64,000 nt of DNA from a virus: positions 4,764 to 68,763 of the IMG/VR virus record IMGVR_UViG_3300020037_005798; one strand, given 5' to 3'. The notes under the pieces are model-generated. The model was not told the DNA's origin. It was given only the letters and a program-made list of their open reading frames with translations, and did no database searches. This document shows, in pieces, positions 17,192-33,681 of this stretch. A program made the position numbers and the translations under genes. How positions within the stretch are numbered: the first letter of the stretch is position 1; each line of letters starts with the position of its first letter.

Positions 17192-17219
17192 TTTTATAAA
17201 ATATTTAATTAATAATAGT

Positions 17220-17293
17220 ATGGGAGATAGGACTCGAACCTACAACCTACGCTATGTTTAAGTGCGTTGCTCTACCACTTGAGCTACTCCCAA
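17220..17293 (-). tRNA. Atypical tRNA or tRNA-like RNA with 11-nt anticodon loop
   Basis: TGGGAG/CTCCCA acceptor, D-arm GCTC-AAGTGGTA-GAGC, T-arm GTAGG-TTCGAGT-CCTAT, anticodon arm ACGC-ACTTAAACATA-GCGT. Confidence 0.8.
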
Positions 17294-24920: not shown

Positions 24921-25382
24921 TTAATTTCCGTCATCTTCTTCATCGCTATTTCTTTTTTTGTTTTTTAAATCTTCAATTTGACGTAGAATATCAGATTTAT
25001 TATCAGTCTTTTCAGAATCTTCTTTTGCTTTCAGAAATTCATTTTTAGATATTCTTGTAACAAAAGCTCTATCTCCAAATATATTTTTAAATAAAGAAAG
25101 AATTGGGTCATTCTCTATAGACTTCATCATTTTTTCTGCTTTCTTTTTTTCAAGGTCTTCTATTAAATTAGAGCAATAAAAACTAGCTACTAATATTACT
25201 TCTGAATAAGAAAACTCTTTTAATAAGCCTTCAATAAAATAAGAACTTCTAAGAGGTTCTTTTTTATAATTGTCTTTGATAAATTTTTTTAATTTATCTT
25301 TTAATGCATCAAATTCTTCAGTTGTACATCCTATTGCAGCTGGAATAGTTTTTTGACTATGGTCAACACTTACGATTTTCAT
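24921..25382 (-). CDS. Hypothetical protein
   Basis: 153 aa ORF. Confidence 0.6.
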   Translation of the reverse strand: MKIVSVDHSQKTIPAAIGCTTEEFDALKDKLKKFIKDNYKKEPLRSSYFIEGLLKEFSYSEVILVASFYCSNLIEDLEKKKAEKMMKSIENDPILSLFKNIFGDRAFVTRISKNEFLKAKEDSEKTDNKSDILRQIEDLKNKKRNSDEEDDGN

Positions 25383-25645
25383 GATTTTTTTGTTTTAAAA
25401 TTTATATACTTTCTCTGAATAATAGTGTTTAACAGGAGCAATTCTAACCAAGCTATACGTTCTTCGATTAGTTGACCCTACAATAAATCCTAAAATTATT
25501 CTTGTTCTAATATGCTTTCTTTGTGCCATTTTTATTTGCCTTTGTTTATTAATAATTAACAAAATGGGGAAATTTCTTTCCCCAATCTGCCTTCAACAAC
25601 AATTCTTAAAACAGAATTATTAACACTAAAAGTAAGCTGTAGTAT

Positions 25646-25906
25646 TTAGGTTTGAATTTTTTCGTTCTCTTCATCAGGTTTAATTGGTTTTATGATTTGT
25701 AATTTGAATTTTGTTGTACACAACCTATGTTTTATTATATATAGATCTCTAAGTTTAACAACTTTAATAATATCATCATCATATCCACATACAATAGGGA
25801 CTCCATCAACAGATATAGCACTATAAAAAGTATTTCTTCTCTTATCATAGTGTACACCAATATAACCAAGTTTGTTTTTAGGGCATTTTTGATATTTTTT
25901 TGCCAT
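25646..25906 (-). CDS. AP2-like DNA-binding domain protein
   Basis: NKLGYIGVHYDKRRNTFYSAISVDG...G.....RDLYII. Confidence 0.6.
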   Translation of the reverse strand: MAKKYQKCPKNKLGYIGVHYDKRRNTFYSAISVDGVPIVCGYDDDIIKVVKLRDLYIIKHRLCTTKFKLQIIKPIKPDEENEKIQT

Positions 25907-26108
25907 TATTTATGAATTAAATAAAAAAATATAGCCCAAAAGGCACATGTAATTATTGTCATAATAAAAGAAATTATATCAATTTTATTATTTTCTCTTA
26001 TGTCTATTATAGTACTAGTTATTGATATGTAACTAATAATTAAACAGAAAAACATTATTATTGTAAAACTAATAACTGATTCCATATTTTTTAAAATTTA
26101 AATTAATA

Positions 26109-26178
26109 TTTAGCCCATCCGCATTTAGTACCTTACTAATTCTCCTTTGGAAAGAATAATGATGCGTTAACTGCTAAA
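26109..26178 (-). ncRNA. Twister-like self-cleaving ribozyme (copy 2)
   Basis: P1 UUUAGC/GCUAAA, UAA, P2 CGCA/UGCG, P4 AUUCU/AGAAU with loop UUCCAAAGG, P5 UAGUA/UACUA, GAUGG pseudoknot strand. Confidence 0.7.
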
Positions 26179-26248
26179 AACCCAGAAAATCATAACTGGT
26201 AAAAACTGACTATTAGTTTTTTACAAACGACAAATAAAAAAGAACGTA

Positions 26249-26500
26249 TTATTTAAGCATATCACCTAACTTTATGTGATTGATAAGTGACATGAAATGC
26301 ATTGTTGCCATGAAAAGAAGCTCTTTTTGAGTCATTGTTTTATTAACTACATCAATATAGTCATAACCATTCAATTTCCCTTCTATTTGAGCTTTTGTGA
26401 TAATCTCTACTTTATTAATATAGTCATGATATTCTTCAGGAGAATCAAAGACTATTGTCATAGGATCATTATTGTCTAAATTTATTTTTAGTGGTTCCAT
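26249..26500 (-). CDS. Hypothetical protein
   Basis: 83 aa ORF. Confidence 0.55.
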   Translation of the reverse strand: MEPLKINLDNNDPMTIVFDSPEEYHDYINKVEIITKAQIEGKLNGYDYIDVVNKTMTQKELLFMATMHFMSLINHIKLGDMLK

Positions 26501-26697
26501 AGTTCAATATAATAAAAATCATTAAACATTGACACAATGGAGGCTATCCATAATATCATTAAAATAAGAATTGGTGTGTCTAATTTGACAACCAATGTAT
26601 CATTATCATCATCTTCTTTTAAAAAGAAAATAACAACAATGAATGTAGATACTATTGCTATTAGCATTAGTATAAGTGTTAGTTTAGATAAACCCAT
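26488..26697 (-). CDS. Small membrane protein
   Basis: Two hydrophobic helices separated by an acidic loop. Confidence 0.55.
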   Translation of the reverse strand: MGLSKLTLILMLIAIVSTFIVVIFFLKEDDDNDTLVVKLDTPILILMILWIASIVSMFNDFYYIELWNH

Positions 26698-26714
26698 GTT
26701 GTTGAATTTAGGGA

Positions 26715-26933
26715 TTAAACTTGTATAAGAAAATTTTCATCTGCTTTTCTTTGAAAAGTAAAAATGTCTTGTTCTCCATCATAATTCCATTGACTATTGT
26801 CATTATCAATGATAACTATTATATCAAAACCCCATTCATTTCTACCTAATTCAAATTTTCTTTTATAACCTACTTCATCTAGTTCTTCTAGTGTAGCAGA
26901 TCCTGTCTTTTTTAAGTCGTTTAGTGTAAGCAT
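26715..26933 (-). CDS. Hypothetical protein
   Basis: 72 aa ORF. Confidence 0.5.
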   Translation of the reverse strand: MLTLNDLKKTGSATLEELDEVGYKRKFELGRNEWGFDIIVIIDNDNSQWNYDGEQDIFTFQRKADENFLIQV

Positions 26934-27024
26934 CTAGTCTTTTTATTAAAATAGCATATACTAAGAGATTTTTACTCTTATCCAATAGCAAAGCTACCAT
27001 GTTGTCTTTTACACCAAGTATACA

Positions 27025-27297
27025 CTATTTAATTTCTTTTTGTTCTTTTTTAAAAAATTCTAATAAACCTTCTAACTTACGTGAAGTTAGATAACCATCA
27101 TAATCATAATTGTGCAATACAATTATATTTTCAGGATACTGAAAACTATCTGCAATAAAGAGCATCTCATTTGGAGTTCCTAAAGAACCAATAGACAAGA
27201 ATCTATTTCTTTCTAGTGGATAAAACAAACTTCTTAATAAAGTAGGTTTATCATGTTCTTTAAATCCTAAAGTTTTAACTTCATCTCTACTCATCAT
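27025..27297 (-). CDS. Hypothetical protein
   Basis: 90 aa ORF. Confidence 0.6.
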   Translation of the reverse strand: MMSRDEVKTLGFKEHDKPTLLRSLFYPLERNRFLSIGSLGTPNEMLFIADSFQYPENIIVLHNYDYDGYLTSRKLEGLLEFFKKEQKEIK

Positions 27298-27700
27298 ATT
27301 TTGTATTCATAAATTTCCAAGATGATACCATAAAATGTTCATTATGAACAACATAAGGTTCTTCACAATTAGCATCTTCTATCTTAATTAAGAAAGTAAA
27401 TCCACTTTGCCAATTTATCCCATCATCACTAACGTATATAATTCTTTTATTAGAATTAGTGTTAGTGTCTGAAGACATATCAATTAATGAAGTTATCTCT
27501 TTAAGAGGAAGATTTAGTGGAGGAGAAGGACTCCAATGAAACTTATTATTTTCATAATAATAATATCTACCTTTTACAAGACTAGTACCAAGGGGAAAAA
27601 ATTCTTTACTATATATAAAATTTTTGTATGAAAGATACCCATTCATGTAAATAGAAAATGCCCCAGCTTTAAAATCTTTTATTAATTCAGTTTTATTCAT
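27287..27700 (-). CDS. Paralog family member 4 (VSDDG..W domain)
   Basis: C-terminal IYVSDDGINWQSGFTFL...YVVHNEH..SSWKF. Confidence 0.7.
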   Translation of the reverse strand: MNKTELIKDFKAGAFSIYMNGYLSYKNFIYSKEFFPLGTSLVKGRYYYYENNKFHWSPSPPLNLPLKEITSLIDMSSDTNTNSNKRIIYVSDDGINWQSGFTFLIKIEDANCEEPYVVHNEHFMVSSWKFMNTKYDE

Positions 27701-28127
27701 TTTTATCTCCTTTAATAAATAACCAAATAGAAGTCATATAGAACTCATTATAAACTATAAAATAAGTTGTTCCATCTTTTAACTCTAGTTTGGTTAGAAA
27801 TTTTGCTTCTTCCCAATCTTCATCATTATTACTAACAAATACATTTTGACCCTTAGTAAAGAATAAATTATTGCTTAATTCGACAATTTCACTTAATGTA
27901 TATACTTTTTCTAAGTATTTATTATCTTCTTCATAAGTATTATTAACTATTATAGGATGACTATTCTCTTTAATAGCAAAATATTGTCCTATTCTAGGAA
28001 TATAAGAACCTAAAGCAAGTAATTCTATGGCTAAATTTTTTGCTTTCTTTTCAAAAGGAAGATCAATAAGGACACAAGCATTTTTTCCTTTGAGTCTTTT
28101 GTTTTTAAAATCTTGAATAAATGACAT
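27693..28127 (-). CDS. Paralog family member 3
   Basis: C-terminal VFVSNNDEDW...FL...FIVYNEF..SIWLF. Confidence 0.7.
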   Translation of the reverse strand: MSFIQDFKNKRLKGKNACVLIDLPFEKKAKNLAIELLALGSYIPRIGQYFAIKENSHPIIVNNTYEEDNKYLEKVYTLSEIVELSNNLFFTKGQNVFVSNNDEDWEEAKFLTKLELKDGTTYFIVYNEFYMTSIWLFIKGDKNE

Positions 28128-28129
28128 AA

Positions 28130-28588
28130 TTATTGATTTAAGGGTTCAAAATAAGGCCAAAAAGATGAATTATAAAATTCATCATAAACAATAACTCCAG
28201 GTATAGCAAGTTTTTTAAATGCAACAAGAAATTTATATCCTTTAACATACTCTGAACCATCTTCACTTACTAGTATTTCAGTACCTTTATCACAAACATT
28301 TTTATACTGTTCAACTAAATCTGATATTAAATGAACATGACCATTAGGATAACTATCTCCCATAGCAGCAGCTCCACTTTTCAATACAGCATATTTTGCT
28401 TTTAATGAAGGACTAAATGTTTTATAATCAAATAAAGCTCTCATTAATTCAAGAGAATCATAATTGTTTACATCATATTTTACTACTTCTTCATTATCCA
28501 TTAACTGTTGTCTAAACTTTTTAACATTTAACATACTAATAAGTTTTAAGTTTAACAAATTTCCATTCAGAAGTAACAAGTCTTTCAT
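28130..28588 (-). CDS. Paralog family member 2 (real start probably the internal Met of MLNVKK)
   Basis: C-terminal ILVSEDG...GYKFL...VIVYDEF..SFWPY. Confidence 0.65.
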   Translation of the reverse strand: MKDLLLLNGNLLNLKLISMLNVKKFRQQLMDNEEVVKYDVNNYDSLELMRALFDYKTFSPSLKAKYAVLKSGAAAMGDSYPNGHVHLISDLVEQYKNVCDKGTEILVSEDGSEYVKGYKFLVAFKKLAIPGVIVYDEFYNSSFWPYFEPLNQ

Positions 28589-29183
28589 TGTGAACTACAT
28601 GTTTAGCTTCACAATCTTCTTCAGGTATTTCAGCCAAATAAGTAAATCCATCCTCCCAACTTTGCCCATCATCACTTACTAATACCTTAGAAAGAAATTT
28701 TAAAGTTGGGGTTACTTCAATAAGATCATTAATGTTTATAACATCATTAGTGCTTGATGTATTTCTTTTTGTTACATTTCCTGCCTCTCCTGTATAAAAT
28801 TTACCTGCTTCCCAATATGCAACATTAACTAAAGGCCATAATTCCTTCATTTTCTTTACCTTTTCAGTAGTACATTCATCTAAATAAATAGATACTGTTA
28901 TATTTTTTAATTTGTCTTGAATTGATTCGATGTTTTCCATTGTTTCTTTTGTGTTTATTAAGTCAATTAAATTTATTTCTTTCCCAGGTCCTAATATGTT
29001 ATGTGTTGAAGTAAATACTCTACCATTTTTAAAATAATAATAAGTATTATCTTTAATACGAAAAAAACCTATATTAAATAAGTTTCTCATTAAAGATATT
29101 CCATCCCATCCTACAATATTTATATTTTCAACCTTTACAGCTAAGAGTCCTTGTTTAATTTCTGCTGATTGTTTATCCGTCAT
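28536..29183 (-). CDS. Paralog family member 1
   Basis: C-terminal VLVSDDGQSWEDGFTYL...HVVHNER..SEWKF. Confidence 0.7.
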   Translation of the reverse strand: MTDKQSAEIKQGLLAVKVENINIVGWDGISLMRNLFNIGFFRIKDNTYYYFKNGRVFTSTHNILGPGKEINLIDLINTKETMENIESIQDKLKNITVSIYLDECTTEKVKKMKELWPLVNVAYWEAGKFYTGEAGNVTKRNTSSTNDVININDLIEVTPTLKFLSKVLVSDDGQSWEDGFTYLAEIPEEDCEAKHVVHNERLVTSEWKFVKLKTY

Positions 29184-29465
29184 AAGAATTATCTTTAAGA
29201 ATGTGAATTATGTATAAAGTAATTAATACAAATAATGTAATTACTGGTATATAATGATACTCTTTAAAATAAAAAGGAAAAACTAATGATACCAATAAGC
29301 TTATTAATATTCCTATTAACAAGAATGCTTTATATACTTTTTTCATACTATTTTTCTTTAGTAAAAATGTTAATAATAATATCTACAGTTTTGATAAAAA
29401 CATAACCAAACCCAAAAATTAAAAGTCCTCCAGTAACGATAGCTAAAGCTCCTGCAAATACGCTT

Positions 29466-29861
29466 CTAAAAGGTTCCATCTTTCAAAGTTTTTTCTAACC
29501 ATTCTTTAGCTTCATCAACACTACTAGACATATGTCCATTACAGTTTTCACTTGCAGTCATATTAGCAACATCCATTACTATTTCTCTAAACTCTTCAGT
29601 TAATCTATTATTATTTCTAATAATACTTAATAAAGAAATACCAGAATTAAAAGTTGCTATTTGTCTCCACATTAGAGTACCAGCATCACTATTATCCTTA
29701 CTACCACCTTTTCTACCTGCATATCTAATAGCAGTATTATCAAATCCAAAGAACTGCATATTTCTTACAGCATTAACAGCATAAATCTCTTCTTGAGTTT
29801 CTCCTGTTAAATCCCAACCAATAGGATTATTTTTTTCGTCTTTTACGATTTCTAATTTCAT
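29466..29861 (-). CDS. Hypothetical protein
   Basis: 131 aa ORF. Confidence 0.6.
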   Translation of the reverse strand: MKLEIVKDEKNNPIGWDLTGETQEEIYAVNAVRNMQFFGFDNTAIRYAGRKGGSKDNSDAGTLMWRQIATFNSGISLLSIIRNNNRLTEEFREIVMDVANMTASENCNGHMSSSVDEAKEWLEKTLKDGTF

Positions 29862-29889
29862 AGTATTTGTTTTTAAGATTGATAAAAAT

Positions 29890-29917
29890 AAAAAACCCCC
29901 ATATTACTATGAGGGTT
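29890..29917 (-). terminator. Terminator after tmRNA
   Basis: AACCCUCAUA-GUAA-UAUGGGGGUU then a U-run. Confidence 0.7.
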
Positions 29918-29919
29918 AG

Positions 29920-30178
29920 TAAAAATTTCGCTTTTCTTGCGGAATTATGCTACCATTCTTAATGGTGCATTATTCATTTGGATAACTTTTGAAGTTATTG
30001 TTTAATAATTCTCGTTGAGTCCTACTGTATTGCTGTCAAATCCCGTTATCCCCTGATTTACCGCTTGTTATTTAAACTCGTAGCGATGAAACGAGGCAAT
30101 CAACTTATAAACGGATTTCTAGTGGAGATAGAGGGAGTTGAACCCTCGTCCAAACAATGTTCAAAAACAAGTCAACAA
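29920..30178 (-). ncRNA. ssrA: Circularly permuted (two-piece) tmRNA
   Basis: Acceptor piece GGAC-GAGGG-UUCAACU-CCCUC-UAUCUCC-A (30123-30151) precedes coding piece starting GGGGAUA...GAUUUGAC (30053); G3:U70 pair; tag frame SKVIQMNNAPLRMVA* at 29945-29992. Confidence 0.88.
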
Positions 30179-30202
30179 ATTATTATGCTGTAAATATATA
30201 AA

Positions 30203-30502
30203 TTAAAAATCATCTGCAACACCATTGTAAGCTAAATGACTATAATCAACATAAGCGTATTTAGAATTTCTTGCATTATGATTTTGTATTCTATGAAATT
30301 TATCTTCTTTTGCTAAACCACAATTTAATTTGCGCCAAACTTGTTTATAGTTTTCATCTGTTATTTCTTTAAAATCAGTATAAATTCTAAGATTAAATTT
30401 AAGCTGTTTTGTAGTAAGATTTTTAACTCTTCTTATTTCTGCTTTATTTAAATTTAAAAGAAGTAATTTATTTTTAAATTCTGTTGGGTTTAATTTAGCC
30501 AT
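30203..30502 (-). CDS. Hypothetical protein
   Basis: 99 aa basic protein. Confidence 0.55.
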   Translation of the reverse strand: MAKLNPTEFKNKLLLLNLNKAEIRRVKNLTTKQLKFNLRIYTDFKEITDENYKQVWRKLNCGLAKEDKFHRIQNHNARNSKYAYVDYSHLAYNGVADDF

Positions 30503-30694
30503 TTTATTTAGGTTTATAAGTTATTAATATAGTCAAATGAGCATCATCACTTTTAACAATTTTAGTACCATCTTCATTCCAATAACTTTTAGTTGATAAA
30601 ATAGTCAAACTATCTATTATTGTATTGTACTTACAAAAATCATTAAGTAAAGAATTAACATCTTTAACAGTACCAGATAATGTTGTTTGCATAA

Positions 30695-30955
30695 TTATTC
30701 TTCTTCTAAACTATATTCAACAATGTTTTCATGTATGTTTAAACATTTCCAGGTAACTTTTCTATAACCATAAAAATCAACTCTATCTCCTTCATTTAAA
30801 TGTATTTCTTGATCTAGTATGATATAAACATTTTGATTTTCTTTATCAAGAATAAATCCTTTAGATTTATATTCCTTTTCATAATAATCAAAACATTCTT
30901 TTAAAGAAGTAGCAGAAGTAAAGATTTCGTTACTAATTTCAAATTTTGTTTTCAT
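30695..30955 (-). CDS. Hypothetical protein
   Basis: 86 aa ORF just downstream of the twister-like RNA. Confidence 0.55.
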   Translation of the reverse strand: MKTKFEISNEIFTSATSLKECFDYYEKEYKSKGFILDKENQNVYIILDQEIHLNEGDRVDFYGYRKVTWKCLNIHENIVEYSLEEE

Positions 30956-30971
30956 AAATTTCTTTATTTAT

Positions 30972-31068
30972 ATTCAATCCCTCTGTATTCAGTTGTAAGG
31001 TAGGTAGTTATTTTATCCTTATCTCAACTGGTCATCCTTGGGAAATGACAATGATACATTGCTTAAAT
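30972..31068 (-). ncRNA. Twister-like self-cleaving ribozyme (copy 1)
   Basis: P1 AUUUAA/UUGAAU, CAA, P2 UGUA/UACA, P4 GUCAU/AUGAC with loop UUCCCAAGG, P5 CAGUUG/CAACUG, GAGGG pseudoknot strand. Confidence 0.75.
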
Positions 31069-31069
31069 T

Positions 31070-31510
31070 CATAAGGGTAAGAAGTGTAATAGCTTTGAGG
31101 GTTAGTCCCCTCTGCTTACATTACACTATACCCTATGTTAAAATCACTTGTCCAAATTCTAGTGGAATAGAATAGCAATACTTAATGCTCTAACTCATTC
31201 TATCTCTACAATAAACACAACTGCTAGTACAGTTTATAATTCTCATACGTTAAACATCGTCTACTCTATGTGAGGGAAATTCCATGAATTATTGTTTATC
31301 TTCAAGCAAGTGATTTATATTATTAAAACAGAAGGTTTGACGTTAGTTACACTCCCACTAGGAACTACACTTATTTATGACGGACTAAACCGCATCCTAA
31401 CTTCTATTTTATATTATTAAACTCTCACAAGGTTGCACCTTGTAGGATTTACTTAGTTGCATAAAATCCTTTTTCTCTACCACTATATCTAATATTAGTG
31501 TAGCCTTGAG
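31070..31510 (-). ncRNA. Second array of structured RNAs (four domains)
   Basis: Long hairpin 31070-31137; AAAUCACUUG/CAAGUGAUUU-closed domain 31141-31316; AAAAUAGAAG/CUUCUGUUUU-closed domain 31325-31410; multi-hairpin domain 31422-31510. Confidence 0.65.
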
Positions 31511-31668
31511 ATTTTAATTCTTCTCTGAGTTCTGATTTAACATTATCTGATAAATCAATAAAAACTGTTTTAGGTGCTGCTTTTCTTGCCATTGTTATTT
31601 AAATTTAATTGTTAATAGTTGAACCCTTTGATTTTTGATCTCAGGGAACAACTAAAAAGACTTTTATT

Positions 31669-32838
31669 TTATTTTATTTTACTAGTTACATATTCAGAAG
31701 CTATATTTCTCATAATACTAAAAGCAATATATTGATTTGTATATCCCCCTTCTGAAGTAGCGTCACGATTAATTAATATTCTGTTTGCTTCCCATCTAAC
31801 TATTGAAAATCTAGTTGTAATAACAGATTTTAAAGGTAAATCAATATTAAATGCTTTAAGCATATAAATTATTTCAGGGAATTTAGCAGAATCATCAGTA
31901 ATAATATAATCTTCTTGAGAATCTGAAGTAATACCATCAATGATTTTTGCTTTAACTAATTGGTCATAAAGATATTCAGGAAGAACATAATCAAAAGTTG
32001 TTGTACCCATAAGACCAGCTAATTTTTGCATTAAAGAGGAGCCAAACTTTTTACCACTAGCAACCATGTCTTTAATAACTTCTAAATTAGATTCAGAAAA
32101 TTTTCTTGGTTTCATATCATTATATCCTGAAGATAAAACAAGGTGCATACATCTATGATCAATACCTTCAGTAATAAAATCTCTCATGGCTTTATCAAAA
32201 TCACTTTCAAGAGCTAATCTGCTTTCATTAATCTCAATATTATTTAAACTAACATCAAAATTAATTTCTTTATTATCATCAGAACATCTAATACCTTGTC
32301 TGTATAAATTAAAACAATCACTACTTCTTTCATACATACTACCTAAAGCATTAGTGAAAATAGGAGTTCTTTCTAAAGCAAAATAATGATCAAAATTTGA
32401 TATTACTCTCTCTAATTCACTATTCATAGGAATATAATAAGTAGTTTTACCATCTTCACCAATCATATCAGGATTAACCAAAGATTTAATTGTACAATTT
32501 CCTTCATCAAGAGCATTAGAAATAGTTTCTCTTAAAGCCATCCAACCAGTCCATTTAGGACCCATATTAGAAGTAATAGATGTATCAATACCATTTACAG
32601 TTAATACTTTAACAGGATTATCTCTGTGAAGTACAACTTTAGTATCTAACTTCATCTCTTCTGTACCTCTAAATACTTTAGGCACACAATTATTTCTAAA
32701 ATACCAAGCTAAACTAAACTTGTTACCACTACCAAATTCACCAATTTTACCTTCAACTCCTCTTTTTGTAGAAGAACCAATAAGTGTTAAATCTTCAGTC
32801 TCAATAAGACCATCGTTTGTTACTTTTAAATAAACCAT
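31669..32838 (-). CDS. GHKL/HATPase-like ATP-binding protein
   Basis: VTNDG, LIGSSTKR, IGEFGSGNKF and LRETISNALDE motifs. Confidence 0.65.
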   Translation of the reverse strand: MVYLKVTNDGLIETEDLTLIGSSTKRGVEGKIGEFGSGNKFSLAWYFRNNCVPKVFRGTEEMKLDTKVVLHRDNPVKVLTVNGIDTSITSNMGPKWTGWMALRETISNALDEGNCTIKSLVNPDMIGEDGKTTYYIPMNSELERVISNFDHYFALERTPIFTNALGSMYERSSDCFNLYRQGIRCSDDNKEINFDVSLNNIEINESRLALESDFDKAMRDFITEGIDHRCMHLVLSSGYNDMKPRKFSESNLEVIKDMVASGKKFGSSLMQKLAGLMGTTTFDYVLPEYLYDQLVKAKIIDGITSDSQEDYIITDDSAKFPEIIYMLKAFNIDLPLKSVITTRFSIVRWEANRILINRDATSEGGYTNQYIAFSIMRNIASEYVTSKIK

Positions 32839-32864
32839 TTCTTTTCTTTTTAGTTATTATTAAT

Positions 32865-32946
32865 TTTAGTCTGATCATCAGTATTCAGTGACTAATCTGA
32901 ATATACAGCTCTCTACATTAACACATATGAGAGAGCTGTTTCACTA
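32865..32946 (-). ncRNA. Hammerhead ribozyme (type II, pseudoknotted)
   Basis: GAAA - stem III CAGCUCUC/GAGAGCUG - UA - stem I UAUUCAG/CUGAAUA - CUGAUGA; loop I UUAGUC pairs with 3' GACUAA; predicted cleavage between 32904 and 32903. Confidence 0.88.
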
Positions 32947-33681
32947 TTTGGAATAATATATTAAAATGATATAAGTATATGAAGTATTAATATTAGACAC
33001 CATTTGTACTTAATGATATGCATAATATTACAGAAGAGAATACCAATTGACTCTAACTACTCTGCTTCTTGGATAAAGCAAATACACAACACACACTTAA
33101 TCACTATCAACACTCCTAATGCTATATTAATTAAACATACAGCATAGGAACATAACGCAAGAATAATACAACAACGAATTAATGGCCATACTTAGCTATT
33201 AGCACCATTCTTATATGCGTTAACTCTTAAAAACGTAACACAAACCTCTTAATCATAAAGAATAATACAAATAATACCCTTTATATAAAGAACAAATAAT
33301 ACAGTAGTATATAGAATAATGTATTTACTAATGCTATATGTTTAGTCTGTTATTACTATTTTTCTTTCTTTTTAGACACTACCACACTATTAGGTGGTGT
33401 ACTCTCCTACAAAAACACACTCAAAAACAACATTTACAACCATTACAATATGTTAAAATATTGCATTATTCATAATTGGGTCAAAAAATATACGGCATAT
33501 TGACAAAACCAATTATGATATTCGCAATGAAACCTCTCAAAAGCTAAGAATGTATCAATATTTGATTAAAAAGTGTAAATCCACAAGAACGTGTTGCAGA
33601 TTTACACCTATATATATATACATCATTAGGACCTTTTAAAAAGCCCACCCAATTGTTCTCTGAACCCACCCTTATATACGA

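What the first reader, a model, noticed from the sequence alone, without database searches (positions are those of the whole stretch)
26109..31068. Two covarying copies of a non-canonical twister-like ribozyme
Seen: copies at 30972-31068 and 26109-26178 have different stems but the same core: NAA-P2-UCAUU-P4[UUCC(C/A)AAGG]-P5-AA-P2'-GA(G/U)GG. The pseudoknot covaries (CCC/GGG versus CCA/UGG) and P2 covaries (UGUA/UACA versus CGCA/UGCG). Known: this is twister topology, but the usual GC/GC second pseudoknot is replaced by UC/GG. Each copy sits about 15-25 nt 5' of a start codon. Inference: a twister variant that may be missed by current models, or a derived non-catalytic motif.
Basis: partly seen in the sequence, partly recalled or inferred. 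Interest (0 to 1): 0.75.

Follow-up and report, generated by a model that had tools for sequence, protein, structure and literature searches.

The report
Uncatalogued phage twister-type ribozyme, two copies
Two short RNA elements between the early genes of this uncultured phage have the full fold of the twister self-cutting ribozyme, belong to a phage-only subfamily that RNA catalogues miss, and probably cut the long early transcript into separate pieces.

Summary
Both copies lie on the minus strand (A 31067-30973, B 26178-26109). They share the core AA-P2-UCAUU-P4-UUCCNAAGG-P4'-P5-AA-P2'-GANGG, found 2 times against 0.03 expected.

They are not a private repeat. Pattern scans and a covariance model built here found 129 matches, 103 distinct sequences, in viral and metagenome contigs. 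Only one bacterial genome record of the 120 stretches returned holds true copies.

All twister helices are supported across the family: P1, P2, P4, P5 and both pseudoknots. On 44 distinct sequences 93.4% of cells pair, against 73.1% when shuffled and 36-52% when slid. The residues known to matter for twister catalysis are kept: the A after the cut, and the G, A and G of GANGG.

No Rfam model reports either window copy. A relative with a short P5 aligns end to end to twister-P1 at only 19.6 bits, against a threshold of 67.2.

My best reading, at about 0.8, is a self-cleaving twister of the rare form with P5 and without P3, which processes polycistronic early RNA. Cleavage is not shown. This scan noted the same kind of element earlier on other phage DNA (e1-5988064 and others). 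I rate it a new variant of a known kind, of moderate interest.

The parts
30973..31067 (-). Copy A, whole twister-type element from the P1 5' strand to the P1 3' strand
   Evidence: Sequence read. Model R2 scores 70.9 bits, E 2.4e-15. No Rfam match at E<=10.
31060..31061 (-). Copy A predicted cleavage site, between C31061 and A31060 (N^AA)
   Evidence: Placed by alignment to the twister-P1 consensus UAA-P2 and the U6-A7 site described in the review PMC6154101. Inferred, not assayed.
31036..31044 (-). Copy A loop L4, UUCCCAAGG. CCC pairs with GGG of GAGGG (T1). The final GG pairs with UC of UCAUU (T2).
   Evidence: Family covariation at these pairs.
30990..31030 (-). Copy A P5 hairpin, 41 nt (CAGUUG...CAACUG), with an inner AAGG/CCUU stem
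   Evidence: The inner sequence is shared with the P5 of L143 and L145.
30979..30983 (-). Copy A GAGGG. G30983 corresponds to the general-base G. A30982 and G30980 correspond to two of the four positions intolerant to every single substitution in Osa-1-4 (A46, G48).
   Evidence: Rfam consensus ...gGcgGAGGGaagg. G45 in PMC6154101. A46 and G48 in PMC5113685.
26109..26178 (-). Copy B, whole element. P1 is either UUUAGC/GCUAAA with a 3-nt spacer, or AGU/GCU (3 bp) in the family register.
   Evidence: Sequence. MFE fold predicts UUUAGC/GCUAAA, P2 and P5. R2 scores 71.0 bits, E 2.3e-15. No Rfam twister match even in an 86-nt search.
26168..26169 (-). Copy B predicted cleavage site, between U26169 and A26168
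   Evidence: Same reasoning as for copy A. U is the base before the cut in 80 of 85 parsed family members.
26144..26152 (-). Copy B loop L4, UUCCAAAGG. CCA pairs with UGG of GAUGG.
   Evidence: Compensatory change relative to copy A.
26126..26138 (-). Copy B P5 hairpin, UAGUA-AGG-UACUA
26115..26119 (-). Copy B GAUGG

Best explanation
Both elements are self-cleaving ribozymes of the twister class. They belong to a phage-restricted subfamily of the type-P1 form that has a P5 stem and no P3.

As the early leftward (minus-strand) transcript is made, each element should fold into the double-pseudoknot twister structure. It should then cut itself just 5' of its conserved AA, after C31061 in copy A and after U26169 in copy B.

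The cut sits at the 5' edge of the element. The upstream RNA is therefore released with only a few extra bases and a 2',3'-cyclic phosphate. For copy A that upstream RNA is a 360-nt non-coding stretch plus the mRNA before it. For copy B it is the mRNA of ORF 26500-26249. The downstream mRNA (ORFs starting at 30955 and 26085) keeps the folded ribozyme as a 5' cap-like leader with a 5'-OH.

The net effect would be host-independent cutting of one polycistronic early RNA into separately stable pieces.

Shown here: the fold (by covariation), the conserved catalytic positions, and the family distribution. Inferred: cleavage itself and its consequences for RNA fate.
For: 1. Real repeat. The core pattern occurs 2 times against 0.03 expected.

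2. Family.
- A pattern with both halves found 26 viral loci. In 6 of them P2 pairs 4/4, P4 pairs 5/5, the pseudoknot position pairs, and the 5' AA is present; the other 20 failed at least one of these checks, with P2 at most 3/4.
- A pattern for the 5' half only found 52 viral loci, 41 of them with a perfect 5-bp P4. The unspecified 3' half (AA-P2'-GANGG) was then found in 35 rows from these loci, 5 of them duplicates.
- The same kind of scan of metagenome contigs gave 92 stretches. Model R2 hits 76 of them.
- In all there are 129 matches and 103 distinct sequences.

3. Phage-restricted. It is a Sediminibacterium MAG contig.

4. Covariation.
- On 8 sequences, 95.6% of cells pair against 70.8% shuffled, and 14 of 20 pairs change on both sides.
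- On 44 distinct sequences, 93.4% pair against 73.1% shuffled and 36-52% slid.
- By helix: P4 100%, P2 99.4%, T1 98.4%, T2 100%, P1 75%.
- Pair types in T1: C-G 36, U-A 3, A-U 2 at one pair; C-G 42, U-A 1 at another.
- Pair types in T2: U.G 41, C-G 2, U-A 1 at one pair; C-G 43, U.G 1 at the other.
- RNAalifold predicts P1, P2 and P4 on its own.

5. Link to twister. L170, a member with a 12-nt P5, aligns to Rfam twister-P1 over model positions 1-68. The layout P1-UAA-P2-(G/U)C...AA-P2'-GAGGG-P1' matches, at 19.6 bits and E 0.029 in a 96-nt search.

6. Catalytic positions kept. The A after the cut, the G of GANGG (general base G45), and A46 and G48 (intolerant to substitution) are present in both copies. 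GANGG is found in 84 of 85 parsed members.

7. Tolerance reported in the literature.
- Wobbles in both pseudoknots and a P5 stem-loop have little effect on cleavage of natural twisters (PMC11662667, passages).
- P1 is dispensable (PMC6154101, section 2.1).

8. Ribozyme company.
- A type II hammerhead candidate (30.0 bits, threshold 37, E 1.1e-4) lies 1.8 kb upstream on the same strand.
- A hatchet ribozyme (80.7 bits, threshold 51) lies 2 kb from the member in L132.
- Twisters and hammerheads are known to lie within a few kb of each other (PMC5408937, passage).

9. Transcript context. In 25600-33200 the only terminator-like site on the minus strand is at 29917-29894, so copy A lies inside a transcript.
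Against: - No cleavage or RNA-end data exist.
- Neither window copy is reported by any Rfam twister model at E<=10. The best relative reaches 19.6 of the 67.2 bits required.
- The position equivalent to G13 is U (78 of 85 parsed), C (5) or, once, part of UU. It is never G. G13 is one of four positions where every single substitution dropped Osa-1-4 activity below 0.2. Those single mutants break the pair, whereas here the partner is G, so the pair is kept as U.G or C-G. The paper's text does not report the compensated double mutant.
- P1 is weak. Family-wide only 75% of cells pair. Copy A has a G/A mismatch next to the cut. Copy B has only 3 bp in register, or 6 bp with a 3-nt spacer.
- 0 of 7 loci around homologues of the neighbouring 389-aa gene in related phages hold the element.
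- Search bias. Most members were found with patterns that fix UCAUU and UUCCNAAG. P2 and P4 pairing was used to pick the 8 model sequences. Alignment A3 is fitted to the model. Conservation figures are therefore inflated, and the P2 and P4 counts are partly circular. T1, T2 and the 3' half in the scans were not pre-selected.
Confidence: 0.8

Rival explanations
1. A structured RNA that descends from twister and keeps its fold but no longer cuts. It would act as a stable 5' leader, a protein-binding site, or a platform that displays the variable P5 insert.
For: - The element scores far below the Rfam threshold.
- G13 is replaced throughout the family, and G13 is intolerant to single substitutions in Osa-1-4.
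- P5 is long and variable, 10-134 nt in 85 parsed members. Some P5 inner sequences are conserved between unrelated contigs. This suggests that P5 carries a function of its own.
Against: - A scaffold that does not cut would not obviously need the A after the cut site, the G-A of GANGG and both pseudoknots. All are kept, with compensatory changes only.
- The company of hammerhead and hatchet ribozymes fits active ribozymes.
- Wobble pairs in this pseudoknot are tolerated in tested natural twisters.
Confidence: 0.12
2. A cis-acting translational or ligand-sensing leader (riboswitch-like) for the ORF that starts 17-23 nt downstream. The pseudoknot would control access to the start region.
For: In this window both copies end 17 and 23 nt before an ATG.
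Against: - Family-wide, only 23 of 83 members with a downstream same-strand ORF lie within 60 nt of it. The median distance is 144 nt.
- Eight close pairs of copies, 21-391 nt apart, several of them tandem, show up.
- One member (L143/L145) is followed by a hairpin and U-run rather than a gene.
- The downstream proteins have no PHROG family in common: none was found for either.
Confidence: 0.05
3. A DNA-level repeat, for example a recombination or cassette joint, or a chance resemblance with no RNA function.
For: - The element is patchy among related phages: 0 of 7 loci hold it.
- It sits at gene boundaries.
- An earlier scan note (e1-6043164, not tested here) proposes gene swapping at such ribozymes.
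Against: Stems differ in sequence but stay paired. P4 pairs in 100% of cells, with 4-5 pair types at each position. Selection therefore acts on an RNA structure, not on a DNA word. The chance expectation for the window pair is 0.03.
Confidence: 0.03

Closest known systems
Twister self-cleaving ribozyme, type P1 (Rfam RF03160), in the rare form with the optional P5 stem
   Same: - Same order of elements: P1, N^AA, P2, 2-nt strand of pseudoknot T2, P4 with a loop that forms both pseudoknots, P5, AA, P2', G-A-(3 nt of T1), P1' (consensus).
- The A after the cut and G45, A46 and G48 are kept.
- It lies near hammerhead and hatchet ribozymes.
   Different: - T2 is UC/GG (U.G plus C-G), not the model's GC-type strand.
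- The linker after T2 is short (AUU).
- There is no P3, which 78% of twisters have. P5 is always present, against 1% of twisters (figures from PMC6154101). P5 reaches 134 nt.
- The core is nearly invariant (UAAUGYAUCAUU, UUCCCAAGG).
- P1 is often weak or absent between tandem copies.
- It scores at most 19.6 bits against 67.2 needed.
- It was found almost only in phage contigs.
Twister-sister ribozyme (Rfam accession recalled, not checked in a call)
   Same: According to the review, its P4 loop resembles that of twister (PMC6154101, section 2.2).
   Different: The review says twister-sister was modelled without the twister pseudoknot fold and differs around the cleavage site. Here both pseudoknots are supported, and the site is N^AA as in twister. 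No twister-sister match at E<=10.
Type-P5 twister (Rfam Twister-P5; accession recalled, not checked in a call)
   Same: Same core fold. Both involve stem P5.
   Different: In type P5 the RNA ends lie in P5 and P1 is closed (PMC5408937). Here P5 is a closed hairpin and the ends lie at P1. No match to that model.

Membership tests
Twister ribozyme class | [quoted passage not shown] | tested here: met
   - P2 pairs in 99.4% of cells, P4 in 100%, P1 in 75% (44 distinct sequences).
- All 5 P4 pairs and all 5 P1 pairs change on both sides.
- RNAalifold predicts the three stems independently.
- P1 is weak in both window copies. The literature calls P1 dispensable.
Twister ribozyme class | Pseudoknot T1 between loop L4 and the strand 3' of P2' | tested here: met
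   - Window copies: CCC/GGG against CCA/UGG.
- Family: C-G 36, U-A 3, A-U 2 at one pair; C-G 42, U-A 1 at another; 98.4% of cells pair.
- The 3' half was not specified in the scans.
Twister ribozyme class | Pseudoknot T2 between loop L4 and the two bases 3' of P2 (pairing potential) | tested here: met
   - UC with GG in both copies.
- Family: U.G 41, C-G 2, U-A 1 at one pair; C-G 43, U.G 1 at the other; 100% of cells pair.
- Only one-sided changes occur, so support is weaker than for T1.
Twister ribozyme class | G at the first T2 position (G13 of Osa-1-4; 'GC' in the Rfam consensus) | tested here: not met
   - The position is U in both copies. In 85 parsed members it is U or C, never G.
- Every single substitution of G13 was inactive in Osa-1-4.
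- The search rule of McKinley et al. for this strand is 'NC', so this is not a strict class-defining identity.
Twister ribozyme class | Cleavage-site dinucleotide N-A at the P1/P2 junction, with the A as general acid | tested here: met
   C^AA in copy A and U^AA in copy B. The base before the cut is U in 80 and C in 5 of 85 parsed members. This is presence of the sequence only.
Twister ribozyme class | Conserved G (general base) followed by A directly 3' of P2' | tested here: met
   GAGGG and GAUGG in the window. GANGG in 84 of 85 parsed members. One unparsed member, L182, has GGAGG.
Twister ribozyme class | Score at or above the Rfam gathering threshold of a twister model | tested here: not met
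   - No twister match for either window copy at E<=10.
- None in 6 loci with members at E<=1.
- L170 scores 19.6 against 67.2 bits.
Twister ribozyme class | Site-specific, Mg-dependent self-cleavage giving 2',3'-cyclic phosphate and 5'-OH ends | not testable with these tools
   No RNA run holding this sequence was listed.
Twister-sister ribozyme | Twister-like P4 loop but no twister-type double pseudoknot (as modelled in the review) | tested here: not met
   Both pseudoknots are supported here. No Rfam match.

The most novel reading that the evidence does not exclude
The subfamily is more than a cutter. It would be a modular 'cargo' platform.

The P5 stem carries different structured inserts of 10-134 nt, and some inserts are conserved between unrelated phages. 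Copies occur in tandem with no P1 between them. Paired cuts would then release defined small RNAs, each consisting of ribozyme plus cargo, with 5'-OH and 2',3'-cyclic phosphate ends. Those are the ends that RtcB-type ligases join, so the phages might make discrete or even circular small RNAs.

The ribozymes could also set exact 3' ends on large non-coding RNAs. Examples are the GOLLD-like RNA directly upstream in L145 and the 360-nt RNA array upstream of copy A.
Probability: 0.15. Interest if true: 0.8.

Novelty: new variant of a known kind. Interest (0 to 1): 0.5.

Why it matters
The biological role of bacterial and phage twisters is still described as speculative (PMC5408937, passage).

This subfamily has several useful properties for that question:
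- It is large, with 103 distinct sequences from limited scans.
- It is nearly confined to phages.
- Rfam does not report either window copy or the members in the six relative loci that were scanned.
- It sits at clear positions: between early genes, next to large non-coding RNAs, and in tandem arrays.

That gives a tractable system for asking what self-cleavage does for a phage. It also shows that current models undercount twisters that have P5 and a U.G second pseudoknot. Adding the family to Rfam would improve phage annotation.

If the U.G/C-G form of T2 proves fully active, it would also answer whether the G at that position matters beyond base pairing.

Tried and rejected
Searches and checks that led nowhere or against an idea:

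- First loose pattern. In a script, 0 of the 112 foreign loci passed the full-motif test; only the window's own two copies did. The pattern was too unspecific, so I replaced it.
- Model R1, built from the two window copies with the long P5 included. It found nothing in 7 loci around homologues of the 389-aa neighbour gene; the best foreign hit had E 4.6. R2 also found nothing there.
- Megablast of 25000-32000 against phage records: no match.
- Weak third R2 hit in the genome, window 25294-25352 on the plus strand, 19 bits. It has only the first dozen bases of the motif and lies antisense inside an ORF. I rejected it.
- Sigma-70-type promoter scan: 47 sites against 54.2 expected, so not informative.
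- Expression: no RNA holder was listed, and read laying was not used.
- The label 'crAss-like' from another first-reader note was not tested. I saw only terminase, portal and major-head PHROG matches and a 25.9% identical capsid match to a Leptolyngbya phage.
- Riboswitch or leader reading: rejected on family context.

Literature:
- Papers not held: Roth et al. 2014 and Weinberg et al. 2015. What I say about them comes through reviews.
- Supplements of Kobori 2016 and McKinley 2024 were not opened. They may hold the G13/C31 double-mutant values and the per-position tables for the pseudoknots, which bear directly on the main doubt.
- No paper describing this subfamily turned up in searches. That is three word searches of the held library, not proof that it is unpublished.
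- What I saw of each paper: PMC6154101, sections 2.1, 2.2 and 3.2 (part 1 of 2); PMC5113685, whole text; PMC11662667 and PMC5408937, passages only.

Numbering:
- The placement of family positions on Osa-1-4 numbering uses numbers given in those papers and the Rfam consensus line.
[quoted passage not shown] I did not put it in any call, note or this report.

Full report
WHAT IS THERE

The window is part of an uncultured tailed-phage record of 68.7 kb, estimated 59% complete. It has terminase, portal and major-head genes on the plus strand. A long run of small genes lies on the minus strand between about 33000 and 23700.

The two elements lie on the minus strand, in gaps of that gene run.

Copy A (31067-30973):
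- It follows a 47-codon ORF and about 360 nt of non-coding RNA.
- It ends 17 nt before the ATG of an 86-codon ORF at 30955.

Copy B (26178-26109):
- It sits in the 163-nt gap after ORF 26500-26249.
- It ends 23 nt before the ATG of a 59-codon hydrophobic ORF at 26085.

Both copies read AA, a 4-bp P2, UCAUU, a 5-bp P4 closed by the loop UUCCNAAGG, a P5 hairpin (41 nt in A, 13 nt in B), AA, the P2 partner, and GANGG. The shared core occurs twice against 0.03 expected. Between the copies, eight pairs differ on both sides and still pair. One of these is the loop position N against the N of GANGG.

IS IT A FAMILY?

Relatives found through the neighbouring 389-aa gene (7 loci, about 40% identity) lack the element. 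Motif scans, however, found it in many other phage contigs.

- Pattern with both halves: 26 viral loci. In 6 of them P2, P4, the pseudoknot pair and the 5' AA are all intact. The other 20 failed at least one of these checks, with P2 at most 3 of 4.
- Pattern for the 5' half alone: 52 viral loci. 41 have a perfect P4 and 11 have at most 3 of 5 pairs.
- In these loci the 3' half, which had not been specified, was found after a P5 of 12 to 136 nt: 35 rows, 5 of them duplicates. One further row, L193, was wrongly parsed by my script and was resolved later by the model.
- Model R2, built from eight short-P5 members: 48 matches in 81 sources.
- R2 also gave 81 matches in 76 of 92 metagenome stretches that had matched a 5'-half pattern.
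- Together these are 103 distinct sequences.
Only one has true copies, two in tandem in a Sediminibacterium MAG contig.

The element is therefore essentially a phage feature.

STRUCTURE

On the eight model sequences:
- 95.6% of cells pair, against 70.8% after shuffling.
- 14 of 20 pairs change on both sides.

On 44 distinct sequences:
- 93.4% of cells pair, against 73.1% shuffled and 36-52% with partners slid.
- P4 never breaks and shows four or five pair types at every position.
- The T1 pseudoknot shows C-G, U-A and A-U.
- The T2 pseudoknot is U.G plus C-G in most members, with C-G (2) and U-A (1) replacing the wobble, and one U.G replacing the C-G.
- P1 is the weakest stem at 75%, and it is missing between some tandem copies.

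Caveats:
- The patterns fixed the loop words.
- P2 and P4 pairing was used to choose the model sequences.
- A3 is fitted to the model.

The unbiased parts are T1, T2, P1 in the first two scans, and the whole 3' half in the scans.

WHAT IT RESEMBLES

Rfam reports nothing for either window copy. It also reports no twister for six loci that hold members.

When only the 96 nt around the member with the shortest P5 (L170) were searched, the top hit was twister-P1. The alignment was end to end and matched P1, UAA, P2, the next two bases, AA, P2', GAGGG and P1'. The score was 19.6 bits against the 67.2 required.

The literature supports this mapping:
- The cut is at U6-A7 next to P1, and G45 directly after P2' is the proposed general base (PMC6154101).
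- G13, G30, A46 and G48 are the positions where every single substitution cripples Osa-1-4. C14-G30 can be any Watson-Crick pair. C-to-U changes that make wobbles in the pseudoknots are tolerated (PMC5113685).

In the window copies, A7, G30, G45, A46 and G48 are kept. Position 13 is U, and its partner is G instead of C, so the pair survives as a wobble.

McKinley et al. searched with 'NC' for this strand. They found wobbles in both pseudoknots, and the presence of P5, compatible with good cleavage (PMC11662667). P5 occurs in about 1% and P3 in 78% of catalogued twisters. This subfamily always has P5 and never has P3. Together with the weak P1, that explains the low model score.

CONTEXT AND LIKELY ROLE

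- A type II hammerhead candidate (30.0 bits, threshold 37, E 1.1e-4) lies at 32865-32946 on the same strand.
- A permuted tmRNA lies at 29945-30180.
- The only terminator-like site on the minus strand of 25600-33200 follows it, at 29917-29894. Copy A is therefore internal to a transcript that also carries the hammerhead, a GHKL-like gene, an RNA array, three small ORFs and the tmRNA.
- In other phages, members sit 2 kb from a hatchet ribozyme (L132) and directly 3' of a GOLLD-like RNA (L145; 91.8 bits, below its threshold of 150).
- Family-wide the element is mostly intergenic: 87 of 103 members overlap no same-strand ORF of 50 codons or more by over 20 nt.
- The median distance is 207 nt from the previous ORF and 144 nt to the next.
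- Eight close pairs of copies, 21-391 nt apart, showed up.

The cut lies at the 5' edge of the fold. This layout fits a processing role: it trims the upstream RNA almost without a scar and leaves the downstream message with a folded, 5'-OH leader. This last step is inference.

VERDICT

Membership in the class is met on fold and catalytic positions. It is not met on the Rfam score or on the identity of one pseudoknot base. Cleavage is untested.

Earlier notes of this scan describe the same kind of phage twister variant on other genomes (e1-5988064, e1-6059241, e1-5990305). This window therefore adds two more members, with short P5 stems, not a first sighting.

Noticed in passing
window 32865-32946 (-): Type II hammerhead ribozyme candidate with CUGAUGA and GAAAC cores. 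Rfam Hammerhead_II scores 30.0 bits (threshold 37), E 1.1e-4 in a 156-nt search. It ends 26 nt before the ATG of the 389-aa gene.
   Followed up: partly
window 29945-30180 (-): Permuted tmRNA, Rfam RF04321, 52.3 bits (threshold 47). It is followed by the only terminator-like hairpin on the minus strand of 25600-33200 (29917-29894).
   Followed up: no
window 31421-31446 (-); L132 6254-6269 (-); L146 10792-10807 (-): A conserved hairpin plus tail (CAAGGUGCAACCUUGURAGAGU) recurs near the ribozyme in three unrelated contigs. It is 355 nt upstream here, directly upstream in L146, and about 90 nt downstream in L132. Function unknown.
   Followed up: partly
window 31070-31448 (-): About 360 nt of ORF-free, hairpin-rich RNA directly 5' of copy A, with no Rfam match at E<=10 apart from noise-level hits. 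It includes a strong hairpin at 31126-31084 whose 5' arm carries UAAUGUA followed by GCAGAGGGG. These words resemble the two ends of the ribozyme consensus.
   Followed up: no
window 30990-31030 (-) and L143 / L145: The inner part of copy A's P5 (GAUAAGGA ... ACUACCUACCUUA) is shared with the P5 of members in two other contigs. P5 inserts therefore seem to be conserved modules, not random spacers.
   Followed up: partly
L145 2773-3222 (-): A GOLLD-like RNA (91.8 bits, threshold 150) ends a few bases before a family member. A hairpin with a U-run follows about 30 nt after the ribozyme, and a tmRNA lies 600 nt further on.
   Followed up: no
L159/L190, L184, L307, L192, L161, L320, L322/L347: Tandem copies of the ribozyme. 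In some, the next copy's U-AA follows the previous GAGGG directly, with no P1 between. Each copy has a different P5 insert.
   Followed up: partly
window 17219-17293 (-): tRNA gene (Rfam 51.8 bits) in the early arm.
   Followed up: no
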